64,000 nucleotides of DNA from Escherichia phage StefiGeyer_Bas88, in the sequence record PQ850628.1, one strand, 5' to 3'. The position numbers and the translations under genes were made by a program. The notes below the pieces were generated by a model. It saw only the letters and a program-made list of their open reading frames with translations. It was not told where the DNA came from and ran no database searches. Shown here piece by piece: positions 24,888 to 48,109 of this stretch; position 1 is the stretch's first letter; every line of letters starts with the position of its first letter.

Positions 24888-24952
24888 GACCTAAGTCCTA
24901 TCTCTTATAATGTATATAGGAGGTAGGACATTTTTATTTATAAGGAGAAATT

Positions 24953-40429: not shown

Positions 40430-40473
40430 AACTCCTTAATATATCAGTGTACACTAAGGAGTATACATTATGT

Positions 40474-42610: not shown

Positions 42611-42841
42611 TTAGATAACCTTGTGCTTATAGATGTTAGGGTTGTAGTAATGCAACCAGTTTATGTATTGTTTCTGTTCGAGGTAGTGCCTGCAATCATG
42701 ACAAAAAGCATGACCCAAACCTGTTTCCTCATTCAGTTTGAAATTGATAAGAAGCTTCTGCTTTCGACAGAAGCTACATGCTTTAGTGGGCTTCACGTAA
42801 TGCATCCCAAGAGATTGGATATATTTTACGAAGCTCTTCAT
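42611..42841 (-). CDS. Cys/His-rich putative zinc-binding protein
   Basis: CSFCRKQ...HAFCHDCRH; track start 42919 overlaps thyX, so an internal Met (42841 or 42805) is more likely. Confidence 0.35.
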   Translation of the reverse strand: MKSFVKYIQSLGMHYVKPTKACSFCRKQKLLINFKLNEETGLGHAFCHDCRHYLEQKQYINWLHYYNPNIYKHKVI

Positions 42842-43433
42842 CAATTGTTGATGCGAACACTCGTACTTCGTACTGAGCATGGTCTGACAGTCGCTGACGA
42901 CACAACTCTGACCAACCATATAGAGAACCAGTCCATACCCACTCAGTGATCATACCCTGAGGTAATACGAATCGAGCTTGTTCTGGAGCAATGAACTTAA
43001 TCAATTCATCGTACGACTCAAGAGCTGTTTCATATGCTCGGTTAATCAGAACTAGTGCAGAGTTTTGTGCTCCTGTGGTGAGGAGATTCCCTGCACCTGC
43101 ATGGAGGTCCGAAGGTCTTTCAAAAATCTCTTTAGGGATGAAGAGTTCAACTGCTCCATCTTTATACCGCCGGGACATTTCGTTCCACGAGAATCCAACT
43201 TGATGCTTGCCCAACTGTCTCGCAATTGCGATTGGCGCTTTGCATCGGAAGCTAATTGTCGGATGACGGAATGGTGTGACATGCTTTTCTCTGGCAAGGA
43301 ACTTGATAAGGCGTTCATCTCGTTCATTTAACTCTCCTTCACGAGTAACCCCAAAGGAAACTCGAGCTGCATTAACAACAGATTTATCAGAACCCATTGC
43401 TTCGATTAGTGTTGCTTGTAATTGTTCATTCAT
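42783..43433 (-). CDS. thyX: flavin-dependent thymidylate synthase ThyX-like
   Basis: DKSVVNAARVSFGV, KAPIAIARQ and LSDHAQYEV resemble ThyX; the canonical RHR-x7-S signature reads KHQVGFSWNEMS. Confidence 0.7.
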   Translation of the reverse strand: MNEQLQATLIEAMGSDKSVVNAARVSFGVTREGELNERDERLIKFLAREKHVTPFRHPTISFRCKAPIAIARQLGKHQVGFSWNEMSRRYKDGAVELFIPKEIFERPSDLHAGAGNLLTTGAQNSALVLINRAYETALESYDELIKFIAPEQARFVLPQGMITEWVWTGSLYGWSELCRQRLSDHAQYEVRVFASTIDEELRKIYPISWDALREAH

Positions 43434-43447
43434 CCTTGAACTCTTCC

Positions 43448-43663
43448 TTAATAATGAATCTTTTTATAAATCATGTTGCTTCCACTTTCTGTTTCAATCC
43501 CTTTCTGAATTGTAATCTTAGAAGCGCCAGTGTTAGCAATTTTTAAAGCTCGCTTAAAGCGGCGAGCCTCTCTCCGTGTTGTATATGAGGAGAAACTAGG
43601 GATTGTGCTATCAAAATTAAACCACTTAACTGCCCAAAAAGTAATCCAAGGTTTCTTTTCCAT
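43448..43663 (-). CDS. small protein, K(V/I)HY-tail paralog family member
   Basis: 71 aa; shares W.V.(V/I)(K/R)W, TR.EAR..KK and C-terminal K(I/V)HY with 45528-45734 and 45734-45946. Confidence 0.4.
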   Translation of the reverse strand: MEKKPWITFWAVKWFNFDSTIPSFSSYTTRREARRFKRALKIANTGASKITIQKGIETESGSNMIYKKIHY

Positions 43664-43664
43664 A

Positions 43665-43940
43665 TTAAATACCTTTCAGAGCCGTGTCTAAAAATGCACG
43701 GAGATTAGATTCAGTTTGCATACCTGATAAGCTGTAATGAGCACCACTGTTCTTATCAGGGATGACAAAGGCTGGGATACTGCGAACACCATATTCAATG
43801 GCTCGCTCTCGACCATCACCTTCAGAGATATTTACTTCTTCAACTTCTACACTGTAGTCAGCCACAACCTTCTTAAACACAGGAGCCATAGCTGCACACG
43901 GAGCACATGAATTACTATAAAACTTAATTACTTTACTCAT
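43665..43940 (-). CDS. thioredoxin/glutaredoxin-like protein
   Basis: ATG at 43940; CxxC active site in KFYSNSCAPCAAMAPVF. Confidence 0.6.
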   Translation of the reverse strand: MSKVIKFYSNSCAPCAAMAPVFKKVVADYSVEVEEVNISEGDGRERAIEYGVRSIPAFVIPDKNSGAHYSLSGMQTESNLRAFLDTALKGI

Positions 43941-43941
43941 T

Positions 43942-44118
43942 CTATTCCTTGTTAATAAACAGGTTGATATGACGCTGGGTAGCAGGAACAACAATAAAAG
44001 ATTTATACTGACCTTTTGCTAAGTCATGAGCAATCTTCTTTGTCTGACCAAGACCCATCACACAGCCACTAACGATAATGGCATGTGCTTGTAATTCTTC
44101 AGGTAGGTTTAGTTTCAC
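43942..44118 (-). CDS. hypothetical small protein (58 aa, GTG start)
   Basis: GTG at 44118 preceded by AAGGAA; stop one nt before the thioredoxin ATG; fills gap between annotated ORFs. Confidence 0.3.
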   Translation of the reverse strand: MKLNLPEELQAHAIIVSGCVMGLGQTKKIAHDLAKGQYKSFIVVPATQRHINLFINKE

Positions 44119-44130
44119 TCTTTAGATTCC

Positions 44131-44316
44131 TTATAGCATACAAAGAATAATAACAAGAGGTAGTGTTATAGCAAAATGTACCAGAACAACACTACCTAGC
44201 TTGATAGCTTTAACATCCTCTTCTGCTGGGTTTTCTTTAATTGCTAAATTTCGAGCTTTATATATAACAGTACCAACTATTAACGACCACACGGCCCACA
44301 CAATCAGTGAAATCAT
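44131..44316 (-). CDS. small membrane protein (paralog 1)
   Basis: 61 aa, two hydrophobic helices; shares ENP...K.IK.GS..LV.F with 44326-44547. Confidence 0.4.
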   Translation of the reverse strand: MISLIVWAVWSLIVGTVIYKARNLAIKENPAEEDVKAIKLGSVVLVHFAITLPLVIILCML

Positions 44317-44325
44317 ATCAAACCC

Positions 44326-44547
44326 TTATGCAGTCAACAGGTGGAGAAGGAAAGGAATGACAACAGAGAAAATTACCAGAGCAATGCTGCCATGTTTAAT
44401 GGGTTTAGCATCATTCGGATTTTCTTTAAGCATCTGTTTCTGAGCCAGATAAACGATACCACCAACAAGAATTGCCCACACAGACCATACGATTGCTGAA
44501 AACATATTCACATCCTTATAAAGAAGTTCGCCCCACCTCTTAAACAA
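44326..44547 (-). CDS. small membrane protein (paralog 2)
   Basis: 73 aa, two hydrophobic helices, same motif as 44131-44316. Confidence 0.4.
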   Translation of the reverse strand: MFKRWGELLYKDVNMFSAIVWSVWAILVGGIVYLAQKQMLKENPNDAKPIKHGSIALVIFSVVIPFLLHLLTA

Positions 44548-44568
44548 AGAGACAGGGCGGAGGTTTGA

Positions 44569-45135
44569 TTAGTAAGACACGTCACCACTAGAGTGGGACA
44601 TGTTGCTCTTGACGAAGTAACAGAACTTGCCAAGACCTTCATTAATTTCTTGAAGCATACTCTGGTCTACTGGATAGGTGCACAAGTCTGAATCAAACTC
44701 GTCCATCTTTTCAATGATACACATCAGAGTCATGCACATGTCGGAAAGCATACCGTCCATGTCGAGATCAGCACTACCTTCTCTGAACCAAGCACAACTA
44801 AGATAGCTACTAGCTGTTGCATCCACTTTGATACAGTGATAACGCATTCGCTCAGCTACTCGGTCTCCTGTTTCACGAGCATAGTCTTCTAATTCATCGA
44901 ACATACCATGAACACCTTGGAAACCAGCTCCAGAGACGTTCCAGTGGTAATTCTTTGCTTTGATGTGTAGAAGCTCAAGGTTAGCCTGCACACCGCATAG
45001 GATGTGCTCTAGACTGTTACCGCTGATCAGTTTATTCATTCCCTCAAGACGAGAGATAGAGGAGTCAGTTGTAGAGAATGGGTTACTAGAACCCACTCGT
45101 GTTAGTTCAGGTAAGTCGAAGACATTATTATGCAT
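44569..45135 (-). CDS. Dps/ferritin-like protein
   Basis: ANLELLHIKAKNYHWNVSGAGFQGVHGMFDELEDYARETGDRVAERM matches the Dps pattern (N.HWNV.G..F...H..F.E.Y). Confidence 0.5.
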   Translation of the reverse strand: MHNNVFDLPELTRVGSSNPFSTTDSSISRLEGMNKLISGNSLEHILCGVQANLELLHIKAKNYHWNVSGAGFQGVHGMFDELEDYARETGDRVAERMRYHCIKVDATASSYLSCAWFREGSADLDMDGMLSDMCMTLMCIIEKMDEFDSDLCTYPVDQSMLQEINEGLGKFCYFVKSNMSHSSGDVSY

Positions 45136-45475
45136 TAGGAGTCTCTCCTTCTAAGTTAGTTGAATTAGCCACATTACGAGCAATGTTATCCATGACCTGC
45201 TGTGTAATAACAATGCAATTCTGAGGGTCTACTGATTTAGAACGCCCCATTTCAGGGTCATAGACTTTGACTCGCTTGGCTGTTGAGCCAGTAACTTGCA
45301 ACACTTTGAGAAGATAACCTTGATTTCCAATAGACCATGCAACAACATCACGATTCTTGATATAACGACCAAGCATATCACGATGATAGAACTGCTGCAT
45401 AACTTTAGCTTTGCTAATCTCTTCAGATGGCGGGGCCACTTTACTCAAATCTAACATAACTCTCTCCTGTTTCAT
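45128..45475 (-). CDS. hypothetical protein
   Basis: 115-aa ORF. Confidence 0.4.
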   Translation of the reverse strand: MKQERVMLDLSKVAPPSEEISKAKVMQQFYHRDMLGRYIKNRDVVAWSIGNQGYLLKVLQVTGSTAKRVKVYDPEMGRSKSVDPQNCIVITQQVMDNIARNVANSTNLEGETPNA

Positions 45476-45527
45476 ACAATATTCTTATACTGTATATACA
45501 TTTGAGAGTTATCATATCTACTACCAA

Positions 45528-45734
45528 CTAGTAATGAACCTTGCTAGTCAAGGATCCTGCACTGTTATTGTCACTTTGAAACCAACGATGAATCTCTACT
45601 TTTTCAGCGAGACCTAAAGCTTTTGTAGCTTTCTTAGCAAGACGAGCTTCTTGTCGAGTGTCGAATAATTTAAGACAATCACCACCAAGGTCTTTGTTAG
45701 CCCATTTAACGCGAACTGCCCATAATTTAGTCAT
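45528..45734 (-). CDS. small protein, K(V/I)HY-tail paralog family member
   Basis: 68 aa; WAVRVKW...TRQEARLAKKA...SKVHY. Confidence 0.4.
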   Translation of the reverse strand: MTKLWAVRVKWANKDLGGDCLKLFDTRQEARLAKKATKALGLAEKVEIHRWFQSDNNSAGSLTSKVHY

Positions 45735-45946
45735 TAGTAATGTACCTTTCCACTGATATAGAAACGACCTGATTTAAAGTCTTGAGCTTTGTGAATAGTG
45801 ACCTTATCAATTGTACTTTCACAGCTTAATAAGAATTTCTTATGAGCGCGAGCCTCTTGACGAGTATTCCTGATGCCCATTGATTCCGTACCACTACTCC
45901 AGCGGATACGAACGACCCAACGTCTTTTCATTGTTCCAAACTCCAT
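45734..45946 (-). CDS. small protein, K(V/I)HY-tail paralog family member
   Basis: 70 aa; WVVRIRW...TRQEARAHKKF...GKVHY. Confidence 0.4.
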   Translation of the reverse strand: MEFGTMKRRWVVRIRWSSGTESMGIRNTRQEARAHKKFLLSCESTIDKVTIHKAQDFKSGRFYISGKVHY

Positions 45947-46146
45947 TATCTGTCAACCGATTCAGGGACAAACTGCATTACACATACCTGATTACGAGGG
46001 AGATTTATTTCACAAGCAGCTTTTCTATCAGCAACCTTTGCTGATGAGTTAGGGCCTATTTGAGCCATCATTATTCCCATAGCAAACATGCCGATGATTA
46101 TGCCAATTGATAGAGATGCTACGGTTTCTTGTTTCATCTTAATCAC
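45946..46146 (-). CDS. small membrane protein
   Basis: 66 aa with hydrophobic segment SLSIGIIIGMFAMGIMMA. Confidence 0.35.
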   Translation of the reverse strand: MIKMKQETVASLSIGIIIGMFAMGIMMAQIGPNSSAKVADRKAACEINLPRNQVCVMQFVPESVDR

Positions 46147-46676
46147 ACCCCTTTAGATGCAACTACACTATTGCTACCATTGTAGCGACCCTTCACTGCA
46201 TATGAATCGTCGCCAGCGTGAGAGTGTTCAAACATAACCATCTGACCAACACGCATTCCAGCACGAACTCGTAAGCTGTGATTGTGGGTAACATTATGGA
46301 ACTCAAAGGTCAGCTTACTGTTGTTAAACCCTGCATCAGCCCAACCAGCATGGAGATGGTTTAAACCACAACGAGCCATTGAGGAGCGGAGTACAAACAG
46401 ACTTGAAATATTATCTGGAAGGTTAAACTCTTCCATTGAGTGAGCTAAGAAGAACTGTCCCGGAGTGATAACGATACCATCTTCAGGGATTTTTACTTCT
46501 TTCCACTTGAGGTTTTCTTTAGCATCAATGTCAACAATACCATCAGCCTGCTCTTCAACAAGGATAGTATCACCAATACGGATATCCACACTAGCAGCGT
46601 TAACATACTTATGCTCCGCATCTAAAAAGCCATTATCAATAACGCTGTGTAATTCTTGAGAACCTAAAAGACTCAT
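46143..46676 (-). CDS. dcd: dCTP deaminase
   Basis: dUTPase-fold motifs ASVDIRIGD, SSMARCGL, AGWADAGF; 177 aa. Confidence 0.75.
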   Translation of the reverse strand: MSLLGSQELHSVIDNGFLDAEHKYVNAASVDIRIGDTILVEEQADGIVDIDAKENLKWKEVKIPEDGIVITPGQFFLAHSMEEFNLPDNISSLFVLRSSMARCGLNHLHAGWADAGFNNSKLTFEFHNVTHNHSLRVRAGMRVGQMVMFEHSHAGDDSYAVKGRYNGSNSVVASKGV

Positions 46677-48109
46677 GAGTTTCTGTTTCCTTGTACAGAT
46701 GATGCCAAATTGTTAATCATATTACGAGCTGTTTCACGAGTTAGTGTAACACCTGCTAAGTTGTTATGAAGTTCACCAGAGAGTTCACGAGCAGTAGCCC
46801 GAAGCTCTTCACCAAGTGAAGTGTTAGAGTGAGCCAAACCATTACGACGACCAACAGGTCGAGGAGTTTCGTTAGCGTCATTAGCTAAAGATGCAAAACC
46901 AATACGAGCAGCTTCACGAGCGGCTATAGCTGCTACCCGATCTTCCGTAGGGGTTGGCAAATCACCAACCCCTACACGTTCAATATCACTAGCACGTAGA
47001 CCCTGAGTAACAGATCTTACTGTTTCCCATGAACGACGAGAGCGCTGCAAATCATCCATTGATGGAGAAGAAACAGGACGAGCAGTTCCTCCTGAGACAT
47101 GCCATGTATGGTTATGCATTCCAGAAGATCGTGCACTACCAAAACTACCGGTGAAAGTATCACGAGGTGCCATTGTACTAGGGGCTGCGAATCTTGCCTG
47201 TTGCCAAGAGTCACGTCTGTCAGTTCCCGGAGTCCAAGGCTGCGTAATTGCTTCAACACCAATAGTGGTTAACTCACTAGACCAATCTGTCTGTAGGTTA
47301 ACTTCTTCATCCAGATAGATACGACCCGCTTCCTGAGGAATATTTAATACAGTTTCCATCATCTTCAAGGTGTAGTGGCGACGTTGATTCTGATACAAGT
47401 TTACACCAGCCATAGGCCCAACTAAATCACTGATCAGATGAACTTCTGGTTCACCAAAAGCTCCCATTGCAAGGTGCATATACTCAGTAGAACTGCTGTA
47501 AACTGCAACTGTTGCTTCAGGCCACTTTTTGTGGACATACTTCATGTCACGACTTGTCACCACAGGGATATCATTAGTATATGCCATTGCAAACATACCT
47601 TCGTTCGACACATACATATCATCGAGAGTCATAAACCCTTGACAGATCATAGGGAAGCGACCGCTCAGAGTATCCATATCCAGAGGAAGGTTAATCATCA
47701 TCTGAATCTTCACTTCATCAATCTCAATTTCCAGAATCTCTTGGAAAGTGAAAAGTGCGTCAGCATAAGTTGTCCCACTAACAGGCTGGACTAAACGAGA
47801 TGTAACTTGAAGTCCCTTACTCTCTGTCCAAGACAAGAAGTTGTCAAGGAACAGTGCAGCATTACCCACGTTAGCAGGGCTGTTTTCCTGACGAGTGTTC
47901 CAACGAAACCCTCCTTGAACTAGGAAGATATCAACATCATTCGGAGTTCGGTTCTGGAAGAACGTATCACGGATAGCACCACCTGCAATAACAGGATAAA
48001 TACCATCAGGGACTACGTTATCTCTGATCAAATTACGAATCAGGTCAAGCCCTACGCTGAGGGCTTCTCCTTCTTGAAGGTTCAATTCAGACAATGGAAT
48101 CTTAATCAT
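46673..48109 (-). CDS. nucleotidyltransferase (CCA-adding enzyme / poly(A) polymerase-like head domain) with low-complexity C-terminal region
   Basis: AGGAIRDTFFQNRTPNDVDIFLV matches the class II tRNA nucleotidyltransferase GGAVRD...DxD motif; C-terminal 200 aa Ser/Arg/Thr-rich. Confidence 0.5.
   Translation of the reverse strand: MIKIPLSELNLQEGEALSVGLDLIRNLIRDNVVPDGIYPVIAGGAIRDTFFQNRTPNDVDIFLVQGGFRWNTRQENSPANVGNAALFLDNFLSWTESKGLQVTSRLVQPVSGTTYADALFTFQEILEIEIDEVKIQMMINLPLDMDTLSGRFPMICQGFMTLDDMYVSNEGMFAMAYTNDIPVVTSRDMKYVHKKWPEATVAVYSSSTEYMHLAMGAFGEPEVHLISDLVGPMAGVNLYQNQRRHYTLKMMETVLNIPQEAGRIYLDEEVNLQTDWSSELTTIGVEAITQPWTPGTDRRDSWQQARFAAPSTMAPRDTFTGSFGSARSSGMHNHTWHVSGGTARPVSSPSMDDLQRSRRSWETVRSVTQGLRASDIERVGVGDLPTPTEDRVAAIAAREAARIGFASLANDANETPRPVGRRNGLAHSNTSLGEELRATARELSGELHNNLAGVTLTRETARNMINNLASSVQGNRNS

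What the first reader, a model, noticed from the sequence alone, without database searches (positions are those of the whole stretch)
43448..45946. Family of three small paralogs ending in K(V/I)HY
43448-43663, 45528-45734 and 45734-45946 (about 70 aa each) share W.V.(V/I)(K/R)W near the N-terminus, TR.EAR..KK in the middle and an invariant C-terminal K(I/V)HY. Maintenance of three diverged copies in an early region suggests a diversifying function such as anti-defence or host takeover.
Basis: seen in the sequence. Interest (0 to 1): 0.45.

Follow-up and report, generated by a model that had tools for sequence, protein, structure and literature searches.

The report
Variable family of small basic phage proteins
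Three small genes in this phiEco32-like coliphage are true, anciently diverged copies of one uncharacterised family of tiny, strongly positively charged proteins; related phages keep 1 to 5 copies at two fixed spots among their DNA-metabolism genes, and the function is unknown, most likely binding of nucleic acid or another negatively charged target.

Summary
The three minus-strand ORFs (A 43448-43663, B 45528-45734, C 45734-45946) are paralogs: pairwise BLASTP E 1e-9 to 3e-8, z 13-14 against shuffles. All three match one orphan phage family, phrog_4939, over their full length.

Copies sit at two conserved hot spots:
- a stop/start-overlapping tandem array between the dCTP deaminase gene and middle promoter P68;
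- a slot just upstream of thyX.

Copy number runs from 1 to 5 per phage. The copies diverge far faster than their neighbours (about 47-50% versus 80-93% identity to phiEco32).

All 43 members examined are basic (pI 9.3-10.75). They share an invariant W...TR..AR..K signature, and 42 of 43 end in Tyr. The conserved C-terminal K-V-x-Y partly encodes the ribosome-binding site of the next gene.

Two of three secondary sources place the region in the middle class, not early. Function is untested. My best guess is polyanion (nucleic-acid) binding modules with paralog-specific loops. An anti-defence role stays open.

The parts
43448..43663 (-). Copy A (71 aa, pI 10.3, net charge +9). It is the dispersed copy, lying between the thioredoxin gene and thyX. 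Its ATG starts 1 nt after the thioredoxin stop codon.
   Evidence: ORF. phrog_4939 match at E 5e-22 over the full length. 92-97% identical orthologs in IME267, ECBP2, 4E8, EK010 and Bas87, with dN/dS about 0.05-0.2. tblastn finds copies at 90% identity or more in 18 phage records.
45528..45734 (-). Copy B (68 aa, pI 9.8, net charge +6). It is the last gene of the tandem array and the ortholog of phiEco32 gp69.
   Evidence: ORF. phrog_4939 match at E 4e-19. It clusters with phiEco32 gp69. This allele is found at 90% identity or more in only 5 phage records. It is 76% identical to IME267 although the flanks are 97-99% identical.
45734..45946 (-). Copy C (70 aa from the first ATG; probably 65 aa from the ATG at 45931; pI 10.7, net charge +10). 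It is the ortholog of phiEco32 gp70.
   Evidence: ORF. phrog_4939 match at E 4e-25. GGAG lies 9 nt before the ATG at 45931. AlphaFold2 model: pLDDT 93.7, pTM 0.77, beta1 2-11, beta2 16-21, helix 24-37, beta3 41-51, beta4 57-64. dN/dS is 0.02-0.05 against close orthologs.
45732..45748 (-). Translational-coupling junction between C and B. The last codons of C, AAG GTA CAT TAC TAA (K-V-H-Y-stop), contain an SD-like AAGGT. The stop overlaps the B start as TAATG.
   Evidence: Sequence. Across 43 family members, 17 of 20 with a stop/start overlap carry AGG in the last four codons, against 4 of 23 without an overlap (Fisher p = 1.2e-5; the members are not phylogenetically independent).
45495..45503 (-). 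AAATGTATA, the counterpart of the phiEco32 gp36-dependent middle promoter P68. It marks the downstream boundary of the tandem-array hot spot.
   Evidence: Motif hit. The surrounding 33 nt are nearly identical in phiEco32 and conserved in all loci examined. The promoter consensus is tAATGTAtA (PMC8948821). P68 was used as a middle promoter in vitro (PMC12276001).
46143..46676 (-). dCTP deaminase gene, the upstream boundary of the tandem-array hot spot (context). In this window a small membrane-protein gene (45946-46146) occupies the slot where phiEco32 has a third family copy, gp71.
   Evidence: Pfam DCD at E 1e-34. Synteny DCD - array - P68 - gp68 - Dps holds in phiEco32, KBNP1711, 4E8, SU10 and four metagenomic contigs.
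42783..43433 (-). thyX (flavin-dependent thymidylate synthase), the downstream boundary of the second hot spot, which holds copy A (context).
   Evidence: Pfam Thy1 at E 5e-43. A family member lies directly upstream of thyX in KBNP1711, L008 and L009, and in the Grimontviridae Salmonella phage PKM.Hi.22.6.

Best explanation
Shown:
- A, B and C belong to one lineage-restricted multigene family, phrog_4939.
- Its members are 65-80 aa, single-domain and strongly basic, with a four-stranded antiparallel sheet and one helix (beta-beta-alpha-beta-beta).
- phiEco32-like prolate podophages (Gordonclarkvirinae, Grimontviridae and uncultured relatives) carry 1-5 copies at two fixed positions in the replication and nucleotide-metabolism gene block. 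One is a tandem array whose cistrons are joined by TAATG/TGATG stop-start overlaps, lying between the dCTP deaminase gene and middle promoter P68. The other is a slot directly upstream of thyX.
- The family is an old set of subtypes, including A, B (gp69), C (gp70) and D (gp71, absent here). Subtypes are gained, lost and swapped between otherwise near-identical genomes, and they diverge much faster than their neighbours.

Inferred (most likely mechanism):
- Each copy is an independent small binding module.
- The residues invariant in all subtypes form a common surface for a polyanionic ligand, most probably nucleic acid (DNA or RNA). They are the N-capped basic helix T-R-x-E-A-R-x-x-K-K/R, basic positions on beta1 and beta3, His47, and aromatic residues on the sheet.
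- The hypervariable beta1-beta2, helix-beta3 and beta3-beta4 loops give each paralog its own specificity.
- The role is accessory: modulating phage or host nucleic-acid transactions during the replication phase, possibly including counter-defence. It is not a core enzymatic role.
- The conserved C-terminal K-V-x-Y is doubly constrained. Val and Tyr are core residues of the last strand, and the (A/G)AG-GTN codons double as the Shine-Dalgarno sequence of the next cistron.
For: Paralogy and family membership.

Restricted distribution:
- 18 representatives in 1.84e9 proteins, all 65-78 aa.
- 98 of 98 related GenBank phage records carry a copy; all are Escherichia or Shigella phages.
- Metagenome contigs of 39-87 kb show the same synteny.
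- A Grimontviridae member has one copy.

Hot spots, copy number and subtypes.

Stop/start overlaps and the embedded SD.

Fast divergence and mosaicism.

Real genes: dN/dS far below 1 for A and C and a confident fold.

Basic character: pI 9.3-10.75 and net charge +4 to +13 in all 43 members.

Conservation pattern: W5, R24, A27 and R28 are invariant. T23, K31, K/R32, K/R48 and Y65 are at 90% or more. R/K8 is at 89% and H47 at 75%. No acidic position is conserved except E/D26.

The core argument is an inference. Surface basic residues conserved across all subtypes, combined with variable loops, fit a shared backbone-type ligand with subtype-specific recognition.
Against: - There is no direct evidence of nucleic-acid binding. 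I could not obtain model coordinates, so surface exposure of the conserved residues is inferred only from strand alternation and helical periodicity.
- A conserved basic face could equally bind an acidic protein, a nucleotide or a membrane.
- Positions 4, 6, 21 and 58 on the 'open' sheet face are mostly hydrophobic, which would also fit dimerisation.
- Cassette-like turnover is what one expects of anti-defence genes.
Confidence: 0.4

Rival explanations
1. Counter-defence or host-takeover inhibitors. Each paralog binds and blocks a different host protein, such as a defence-system component. The family diversifies in an arms race.
For: - Copy number is variable, there are many subtypes, alleles are mosaic, and divergence is accelerated relative to flanking core genes.
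- Gordonclarkvirinae are reported as remarkably resistant to RM and other tested defence systems, with no known inhibitor or modification pathway (PMC11990801).
Against: - The proteins are not in the variable early cluster where host-takeover genes of these phages are thought to lie (PMC8948821).
- They are strongly basic, so they are not DNA mimics.
- The most conserved residues are shared by all subtypes, which is unexpected if each targets a different protein.
- Close orthologs of A and C are under purifying selection.
- There is no hit in the PADLOC, Pfam or NCBIfam libraries. This is uninformative rather than negative.
Confidence: 0.28
2. Accessory subunits or regulators of the adjacent dTTP-pathway enzymes (dCTP deaminase, ThyX, thioredoxin), or of the replisome, for example as assembly or allosteric factors.
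For: Both hot spots abut dTMP-pathway genes. The array follows the dCTP deaminase gene, and the other slot precedes thyX. This holds even in a different virus family. The cistrons are translationally coupled within the replication operon.
Against: - The partner enzymes are 84-99% conserved while the small proteins are 35-50% identical. Copy number varies from 1 to 5, and phiEco32 lacks the thyX-proximal copy. A dedicated subunit should co-evolve with its partner and stay single-copy.
- Operon ends and gene junctions are generic insertion sites for accessory genes.
Confidence: 0.1
3. The paralogs assemble with each other into homo- or hetero-oligomers, such as sheet-to-sheet dimers. These would form a structural or sequestering particle, for example a sponge for nucleotides or immune signalling molecules.
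For: - Stop/start coupling predicts co-expression of adjacent copies at roughly equal levels.
- The helix-free sheet face carries several conserved hydrophobic or aromatic positions (4, 6, 21, 58, 64) next to conserved Lys, Arg and His.
Against: One phage (PKM.Hi.22.6) has a single copy, and copy sets differ freely between phages, so no fixed hetero-oligomer is required. The fold hit is weak and generic. No multimer prediction could be run.
Confidence: 0.12
4. Small RNase toxins of the RelE/YoeB type used for host mRNA shut-off. YoeB ends in catalytic His-Tyr (from memory), and these proteins end in H-Y or Y-Y.
For: The proteins are small and basic, with conserved Arg, Lys and His and a terminal Tyr.
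Against: - The penultimate residue is H in only 8 of 36 members, and otherwise Y, E or F.
- There is no Pfam or NCBIfam hit.
Confidence: 0.03
5. Virion-packaged internal proteins (like the basic T4 IPI-III, from memory), or RNA-polymerase-binding transcription factors.
For: The family is basic, small, multi-copy and variable.
Against: - SU10 lysate and virion proteomics identified 34 proteins, including neighbours CDS65, 67, 68 and 74, but none of CDS69-72. This is weak evidence, because small basic proteins give few tryptic peptides.
- The genes lie outside the late structural module.
Confidence: 0.04

Closest known systems
PHROG family phrog_4939 (unknown function), including phiEco32 gp69, gp70 and gp71 and ECBP2_0060, 0067 and 0068
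   Same: This is the same family. All 36 diverse members tested match it over the full length, with a best E of 1.7e-28, and match nothing else. Orthologs at 92-97% identity are annotated as hypothetical proteins in GenBank phages.
   Different: Nothing differs. The family has no described function, structure or literature that I could find.
DUF2188 (Pfam PF09954, 'YdaT-like'), small bacterial proteins of unknown function
   Same: Size is similar (about 74 aa), and the linear pattern looks alike: W-x-V in the first strand, T-x-x-E-A starting the helix, and I-H in the next strand. hhalign aligns exactly those segments.
   Different: The similarity is not statistically supported. hhalign probability is 5.8% over 23 columns, and Pfam hmmscan gives no hit for 21 members even at E up to 10. 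DUF2188 also lacks the R..AR..K signature and the terminal Tyr.
T4 Dmd antitoxin (PDB 5hy3_B) and other very small phage alpha/beta inhibitor proteins
Hyperplastic small-gene arrays of virulent phages, such as the T4 internal proteins IPI-III (from memory, not tested)
   Same: Both are lineage-specific, multi-copy, small basic proteins whose number and alleles vary between close relatives.
   Different: The present family is not in a structural or late module, was not detected in the SU10 proteome, has no recognisable capsid-targeting sequence, and shows no sequence or fold similarity to those proteins.

Membership tests
phrog_4939 | Full-length match to the family HMM. | tested here: met
   A scores E 5e-22 (residues 6-71 against profile 1-67 of 67), B 4e-19 and C 4e-25. 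All 36 of 36 diverse relatives match only this PHROG.
phrog_4939 | Signature W(beta1) ... T-R-x-x-A-R-x-x-K (helix) ... C-terminal Tyr, in a basic protein of 65-80 aa. | tested here: met
   W5, R24, A27 and R28 are invariant and T23, K31 and Y65 are at 90% or more in 36 sequences. pI is 9.3-10.75 in all 43 members, and 42 of 43 end in Tyr. A, B and C all comply.
DUF2188 (PF09954) | Significant match to the Pfam model, or a profile-profile match. | tested here: not met
   There is no Pfam hit at E up to 10. hhalign of A4 against a 24-sequence DUF2188 alignment gives probability 5.8%. The DUF2188 alignment was shallow (Neff 1.9), so a very remote relationship is not excluded.
RelE/YoeB-type mRNA interferases | RelE fold (beta-alpha-alpha-beta-beta-beta) and family HMM match. 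| tested here: not met
DNA-mimic anti-restriction proteins (Ocr, ArdA or Ugi type) | Strongly acidic surface that mimics the DNA backbone. | tested here: not met
   All members are basic, with net charge +4 to +13.
T4 Dmd-like antitoxins | Sequence or strong fold similarity to Dmd, and a cognate RnlA/LsoA-type toxin target. | tested here: inconclusive
Virion internal proteins (T4 IP-like) | Presence in purified virions. | tested here: not met
   SU10 CDS69-72 are absent from the 34 proteins identified by MS. This is literature evidence, and it is weak because the sample was PEG-precipitated lysate and the proteins are small and basic.
RNAP-associated phage transcription factors (gp79-like) | Co-purification with host RNA polymerase from infected cells. 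| tested here: not met
   Only gp36 and gp79 were found with RNAP from phiEco32-infected cells (PMC12276001). The family HMM does not hit any other ORF in the window.
Nucleic-acid-binding proteins (functional class, not a homology family) | Direct binding to DNA or RNA. | not testable with these tools
   Only indirect evidence is available: high pI, conserved Arg, Lys and His, and aromatic positions.

The most novel reading that the evidence does not exclude
The family is a new class of counter-defence effectors. Small basic modules, alone or as oligomers, would sequester a nucleic-acid or nucleotide-type immune signal or guide, or occlude the nucleic-acid-binding site of defence nucleases. 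Each subtype would neutralise a different system. This would account for the unexplained broad resistance of Gordonclarkvirinae to restriction-modification and other defence systems.
Probability: 0.12. Interest if true: 0.75.

Novelty: new member of a known kind. Interest (0 to 1): 0.4.

Why it matters
phiEco32-like phages are common, have a broad host range, are candidates for therapy, and are unusually insensitive to known defence systems without any known inhibitor (PMC11990801). This family is one of the few clearly hypervariable gene sets inside their otherwise very conserved replication module. It has a confidently predicted fold without solved relatives, and every sequenced relative carries at least one copy.

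That makes it a compact, testable candidate set. The proteins are only 65-70 aa, natural allele panels already exist, and the BASEL isolates grow on E. coli K-12. The target could be a new nucleic-acid-binding mini-domain or a new anti-defence mechanism.

The work also gives two practical annotation points. The conserved C-terminal motif is partly an embedded ribosome-binding site. The family marks two recombination hot spots that are useful when comparing kuravirus genomes.

If the proteins turn out to be dispensable fillers, the finding is ordinary.

Tried and rejected
Homology to described families:
- Pfam, NCBIfam and PADLOC scans of the three proteins and of 21-36 relatives gave nothing credible.
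- I recalled a DUF2188 lead from memory and tested it. My recalled sequence retrieved genuine PF09954 proteins, but hhalign gave 5.8% probability. Rejected.
- The DNA-mimic idea was rejected on charge.

Fold and structure:
- BFVD returned only family members plus weak uncharacterised hits.
- The afdb50 library was unavailable.

Related loci:
- The search for related loci failed with A3. With A2 it found one IMG/VR locus.

DNA-level features:
- No Rfam family reaches threshold anywhere in the window.
- No meaningful DNA repeats link the copies, so the paralogy is visible only at protein level.
- The generic sigma70 and terminator scan was not enriched over shuffles.

Literature:
- The primary phiEco32 papers (Savalia 2008, Pavlova 2012) are not held. 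The temporal class therefore rests on secondary sources, and these disagree: middle in PMC8948821 and PMC9965538, early for CDS69-125 in PMC4281155.
- No paper found mentions these genes as a family.
Full report
**What the window is.** The region 43000-46200 is 92-97% identical at nucleotide level to Escherichia phages IME267, HC-25922, ECBP2, TH43 and 4E8. It has 98 related records, all Escherichia or Shigella phages of the phiEco32 group (Gordonclarkvirinae: Kuravirus, Suseptimavirus, Nieuwekanaalvirus). All genes in this part of the window run on the minus strand.

**Checking the observation.**
- The three ORFs are present as described.
- Pairwise BLASTP over nearly the full length gives 32-33% identity, with E 2e-8 (A-B), 3e-8 (A-C) and 1e-9 (B-C).
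- Smith-Waterman scores are 13-14 standard deviations above 5000 shuffles, and none of the shuffles reach them. The best unrelated small minus-strand ORF in the window scores 37, against 78-87 for the three pairs.
- An HMM of the three detects no further copy in the window.
- C probably begins at the second ATG (45931, 65 aa). That ATG has GGAG 9 nt upstream and matches the annotated or clustered length of its orthologs.

**Which family it is.**
- All three proteins match one orphan phage family, phrog_4939 ('unknown function'), end to end (E 4e-19 to 4e-25).
- No Pfam, NCBIfam or PADLOC model matches them or their relatives.
- An exhaustive HMMER search of 1.84 billion cluster representatives found only 18 proteins at E up to 1e-3. 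All are 65-78 aa and single-domain.
- Two word-indexed searches of 5.8 billion proteins found only further close members, none with a Pfam domain.
- tblastn of C hits 98 phage records, the same number as the megablast search of the region found.
- More distant members lie on metagenomic contigs of 39-87 kb with the same gene order. One lies in Salmonella phage PKM.Hi.22.6 of the family Grimontviridae.
- The family is thus confined to the phiEco32-like prolate podophages.

**Genomic anatomy.** The copies occupy two fixed positions.

- *Hot spot 1* is a tandem array immediately downstream of the dCTP deaminase gene and immediately upstream of a conserved intergenic region. That region carries AAATGTATA at window 45495-45503(-). 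It is the counterpart of the phiEco32 gp36-dependent middle promoter P68, and its 33-nt surroundings are almost identical in phiEco32 and conserved in all lineages examined (consensus from PMC8948821; P68 used experimentally in PMC12276001).
- The array has 2 copies in the window (C, B), IME267, ECBP2, EK010, Bas87 and L008. It has 3 in phiEco32 (gp71, gp70, gp69), 4E8 and KBNP1711, 4 in L009, at least 4 in L006 (the contig ends within the array), and 5 in L004.
- In the window the gp71 slot holds a small membrane-protein gene instead (45946-46146).
- *Hot spot 2* lies just upstream of thyX. It holds copy A here and a different subtype in KBNP1711, L008 and L009. EK010 and Bas87 have two copies there, next to an inserted HNH endonuclease. 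phiEco32 has none. PKM.Hi.22.6 has its only copy there.
- Average-linkage clustering at 40% identity of 43 unique members from 15 loci gives five recurrent orthogroups (B, C, A1, D and A2) plus 14 singletons.

**Evolutionary behaviour.**
- Between the window and phiEco32, DCD, gp68, the Dps-like protein, ThyX and thioredoxin are 92, 93, 83, 84 and 80% identical. B and C are 50 and 47% identical.
- Between close relatives, A and C are under purifying selection (dN/dS about 0.02-0.2). B shows dN/dS of 0.35-0.45 against the IME267 group.
- Nucleotide-identity profiles show gene-scale mosaicism. Against IME267, identity drops to 79-85% in the 3' half of B and to 59-64% in the adjacent membrane-protein gene. 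Against EK010, B is 99% identical, but two small membrane genes are missing and an HNH gene plus an extra family copy are inserted.
- The window's B allele occurs at 90% identity or more in only 5 phage records. The A allele occurs at that level in 18.
- These are real, selected genes that behave as a diversifying accessory family inside a conserved module.

**Expression signals.**
- Adjacent array genes share one nucleotide between stop and start (TAATG or TGATG) in every lineage.
- The codons for the conserved C-terminal residues, (A/G)AG-GTN-NNN-TAY-stop (K/E-V-x-Y), place an AGGT Shine-Dalgarno core about 9 nt before the next ATG.
- AGG occurs in the last four codons in 17 of 20 members with an overlapping downstream start, against 4 of 23 without one (Fisher p = 1.2e-5; members are not independent).
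- This explains why position -4 is either Lys or Glu. Those are opposite charges, but both codons end in AG.
- Part of the 'invariant K(V/I)HY' is therefore a dual-coded ribosome-binding site. The Val and the terminal Tyr (42 of 43 members, coupled or not) are retained independently, consistent with core positions of the last strand.

**Temporal class.**
- No gp36-type motif lies on the minus strand between P68 and the window end. B and C must therefore be read from promoters far upstream, while A lies in the P68 unit.
- PMC9965538, citing the phiEco32 macroarray paper, assigns YF01 gp23-81 to the middle class. That range includes thyX gp60, DCD gp68 and the gp79 homolog gp76.
- PMC4281155 instead counts SU10 CDS69-125 as early.
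- The primary papers were not available.
- On balance the region is the replication and nucleotide-metabolism (middle or delayed-early) block, not the variable early host-takeover cluster.

**Protein properties and structure.**
- All 43 members are basic, with pI 9.3-10.75 and net charge +4 to +13 (median +8).
- AlphaFold2 on copy C with a 26-sequence alignment gives pLDDT 93.7 and pTM 0.77. The topology is beta1 (2-11), beta2 (16-21), helix (24-37), beta3 (41-51) and beta4 (57-64). An earlier model of A had the same topology at pLDDT 76.
- Foldseek against viral models returns family members and weak uncharacterised proteins.
- In 36 diverse sequences W5, R24, A27 and R28 are invariant. T23, K31, K/R32, K/R48 and Y65 are at 90% or more, R/K8 is at 89% and H47 at 75%. 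The only partly conserved acidic position is 26.
- The hydrophobic helix positions 27, 30, 34 and 37 form the packing stripe. R24, R28, K31 and K32 lie on the adjoining side. The strand positions that alternate with the core residues carry R/K8, K43, H47, K62, and Tyr or His at 58 and 64. This geometry is inferred from periodicity, not from coordinates.
- The variable, indel-rich segments are the beta1-beta2, helix-beta3 and beta3-beta4 loops.

**Interpretation.**
- Shown: a real, lineage-restricted, fast-turning-over family of tiny basic alpha/beta proteins. Its members are translationally coupled in arrays at two conserved hot spots of the DNA-metabolism block.
- Inferred: the residues conserved across all subtypes are mostly basic, with no conserved acidic counterpart, while the loops vary. 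The most economical model is therefore a common polyanion-binding surface, most likely for nucleic acid, with subtype-specific recognition supplied by the loops. I give this about 0.4.
The evolutionary pattern fits it, and these phages are unexplainedly defence-resistant (PMC11990801). The charge excludes DNA mimicry, however, and the location is not the early cluster.
- An enzyme-accessory role (about 0.1) is suggested only by adjacency to DCD and thyX. The variable copy number and the lack of co-evolution argue against it.
- Self-assembly or nucleotide sponging (about 0.12) cannot be tested here.
- RelE-like toxin, virion internal protein and RNAP factor are each unlikely.

**Comparison with known families.**
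- The proteins are members of phrog_4939, and that is the only membership that passes.
- DUF2188 (PF09954) looked similar in linear pattern. I retrieved genuine members, aligned them and compared profiles. The probability was 5.8%, so membership is not supported.
- No literature on the family was found.

**Verdict.**
- The genes are near-identical to annotated hypothetical proteins, so they are new members of a catalogued but uncharacterised kind.
- Interest is moderate (0.4). A confident fold without solved relatives, a distinctive genomic behaviour and an experimentally tractable system are offset by the absence of any functional evidence.

Noticed in passing
window 44131-44316(-) and 44326-44547(-) (probable start 44505): Two adjacent small hydrophobic (membrane-type) proteins are themselves paralogs (45% identity, E 3e-17). 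They form a second tandem small-gene family in the same block. One of them is missing in EK010, and they diverge fast (34-53% identity to phiEco32).
   Followed up: partly
window 45495-45503(-): This is the counterpart of the phiEco32 gp36-dependent middle promoter P68 (CAAATGTATATA), in the intergenic region between B and the gp68-like gene. The surrounding GGTAGTAGATATGATAACTCTCAAATGTATATA is conserved from phiEco32 to divergent metagenomic relatives. The only other minus-strand [TA]AATGTA[TA]A sites in the window are at 40470 and 34306. The plus-strand sites are at 24908 and 34369.
   Followed up: partly
window 45946-46146(-): A small membrane-protein gene occupies the slot where phiEco32 has the third family copy, gp71. 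It is only 60-63% identical to IME267, ECBP2 and Bas87, although its flanks are 97-99% identical, and it is absent in EK010. This is another fast-turnover cassette.
   Followed up: partly
window 42611-42919(-): A Cys-rich 102-aa ORF (CxxC...CxxC; weak Zn_ribbon_Elf1 hit at E 0.008) overlaps the 3' end of thyX by about 137 nt in another frame. It is annotated as a gene in phage 4E8 (g061c).
   Followed up: no
window 46673-48109(-); L008 4085-5263; L003 2935-4248: This is the 'nucleotidyltransferase' next to the dCTP deaminase gene, which the BASEL paper suspects of a DNA-modification role. Its orthologs weakly hit the PolyA_pol head domain (E 3e-4 and 2e-3). The L008 ortholog carries a precomputed weak hit to PF26128 (Gad2, an anti-Gabija family), which my hmmscan did not reproduce. 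The window protein has a long, low-complexity, divergent C-terminal half and no Pfam hit.
   Followed up: partly
L012 (EK010) 1927-2849 and L013 (Bas87) 1927-2857: An HNH endonuclease gene is inserted directly upstream of thyX, next to an extra, very divergent family copy. The EK010 copy is the only member that does not end in Tyr (it ends in YR).
   Followed up: partly
window 45128-45457(-): The gp68-like 109-aa protein has no Pfam hit, yet it is the most conserved gene of the block (90-100% identity even to the most divergent metagenomic relatives). It was detected by MS in SU10. It is likely an essential unknown.
   Followed up: no
window 44529-44559(-): A strong terminator-like hairpin (13 pairs, 7 of them G-C, followed by a T-rich tail) lies right after the Dps-like gene, within the P68 transcription unit.
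   Followed up: no
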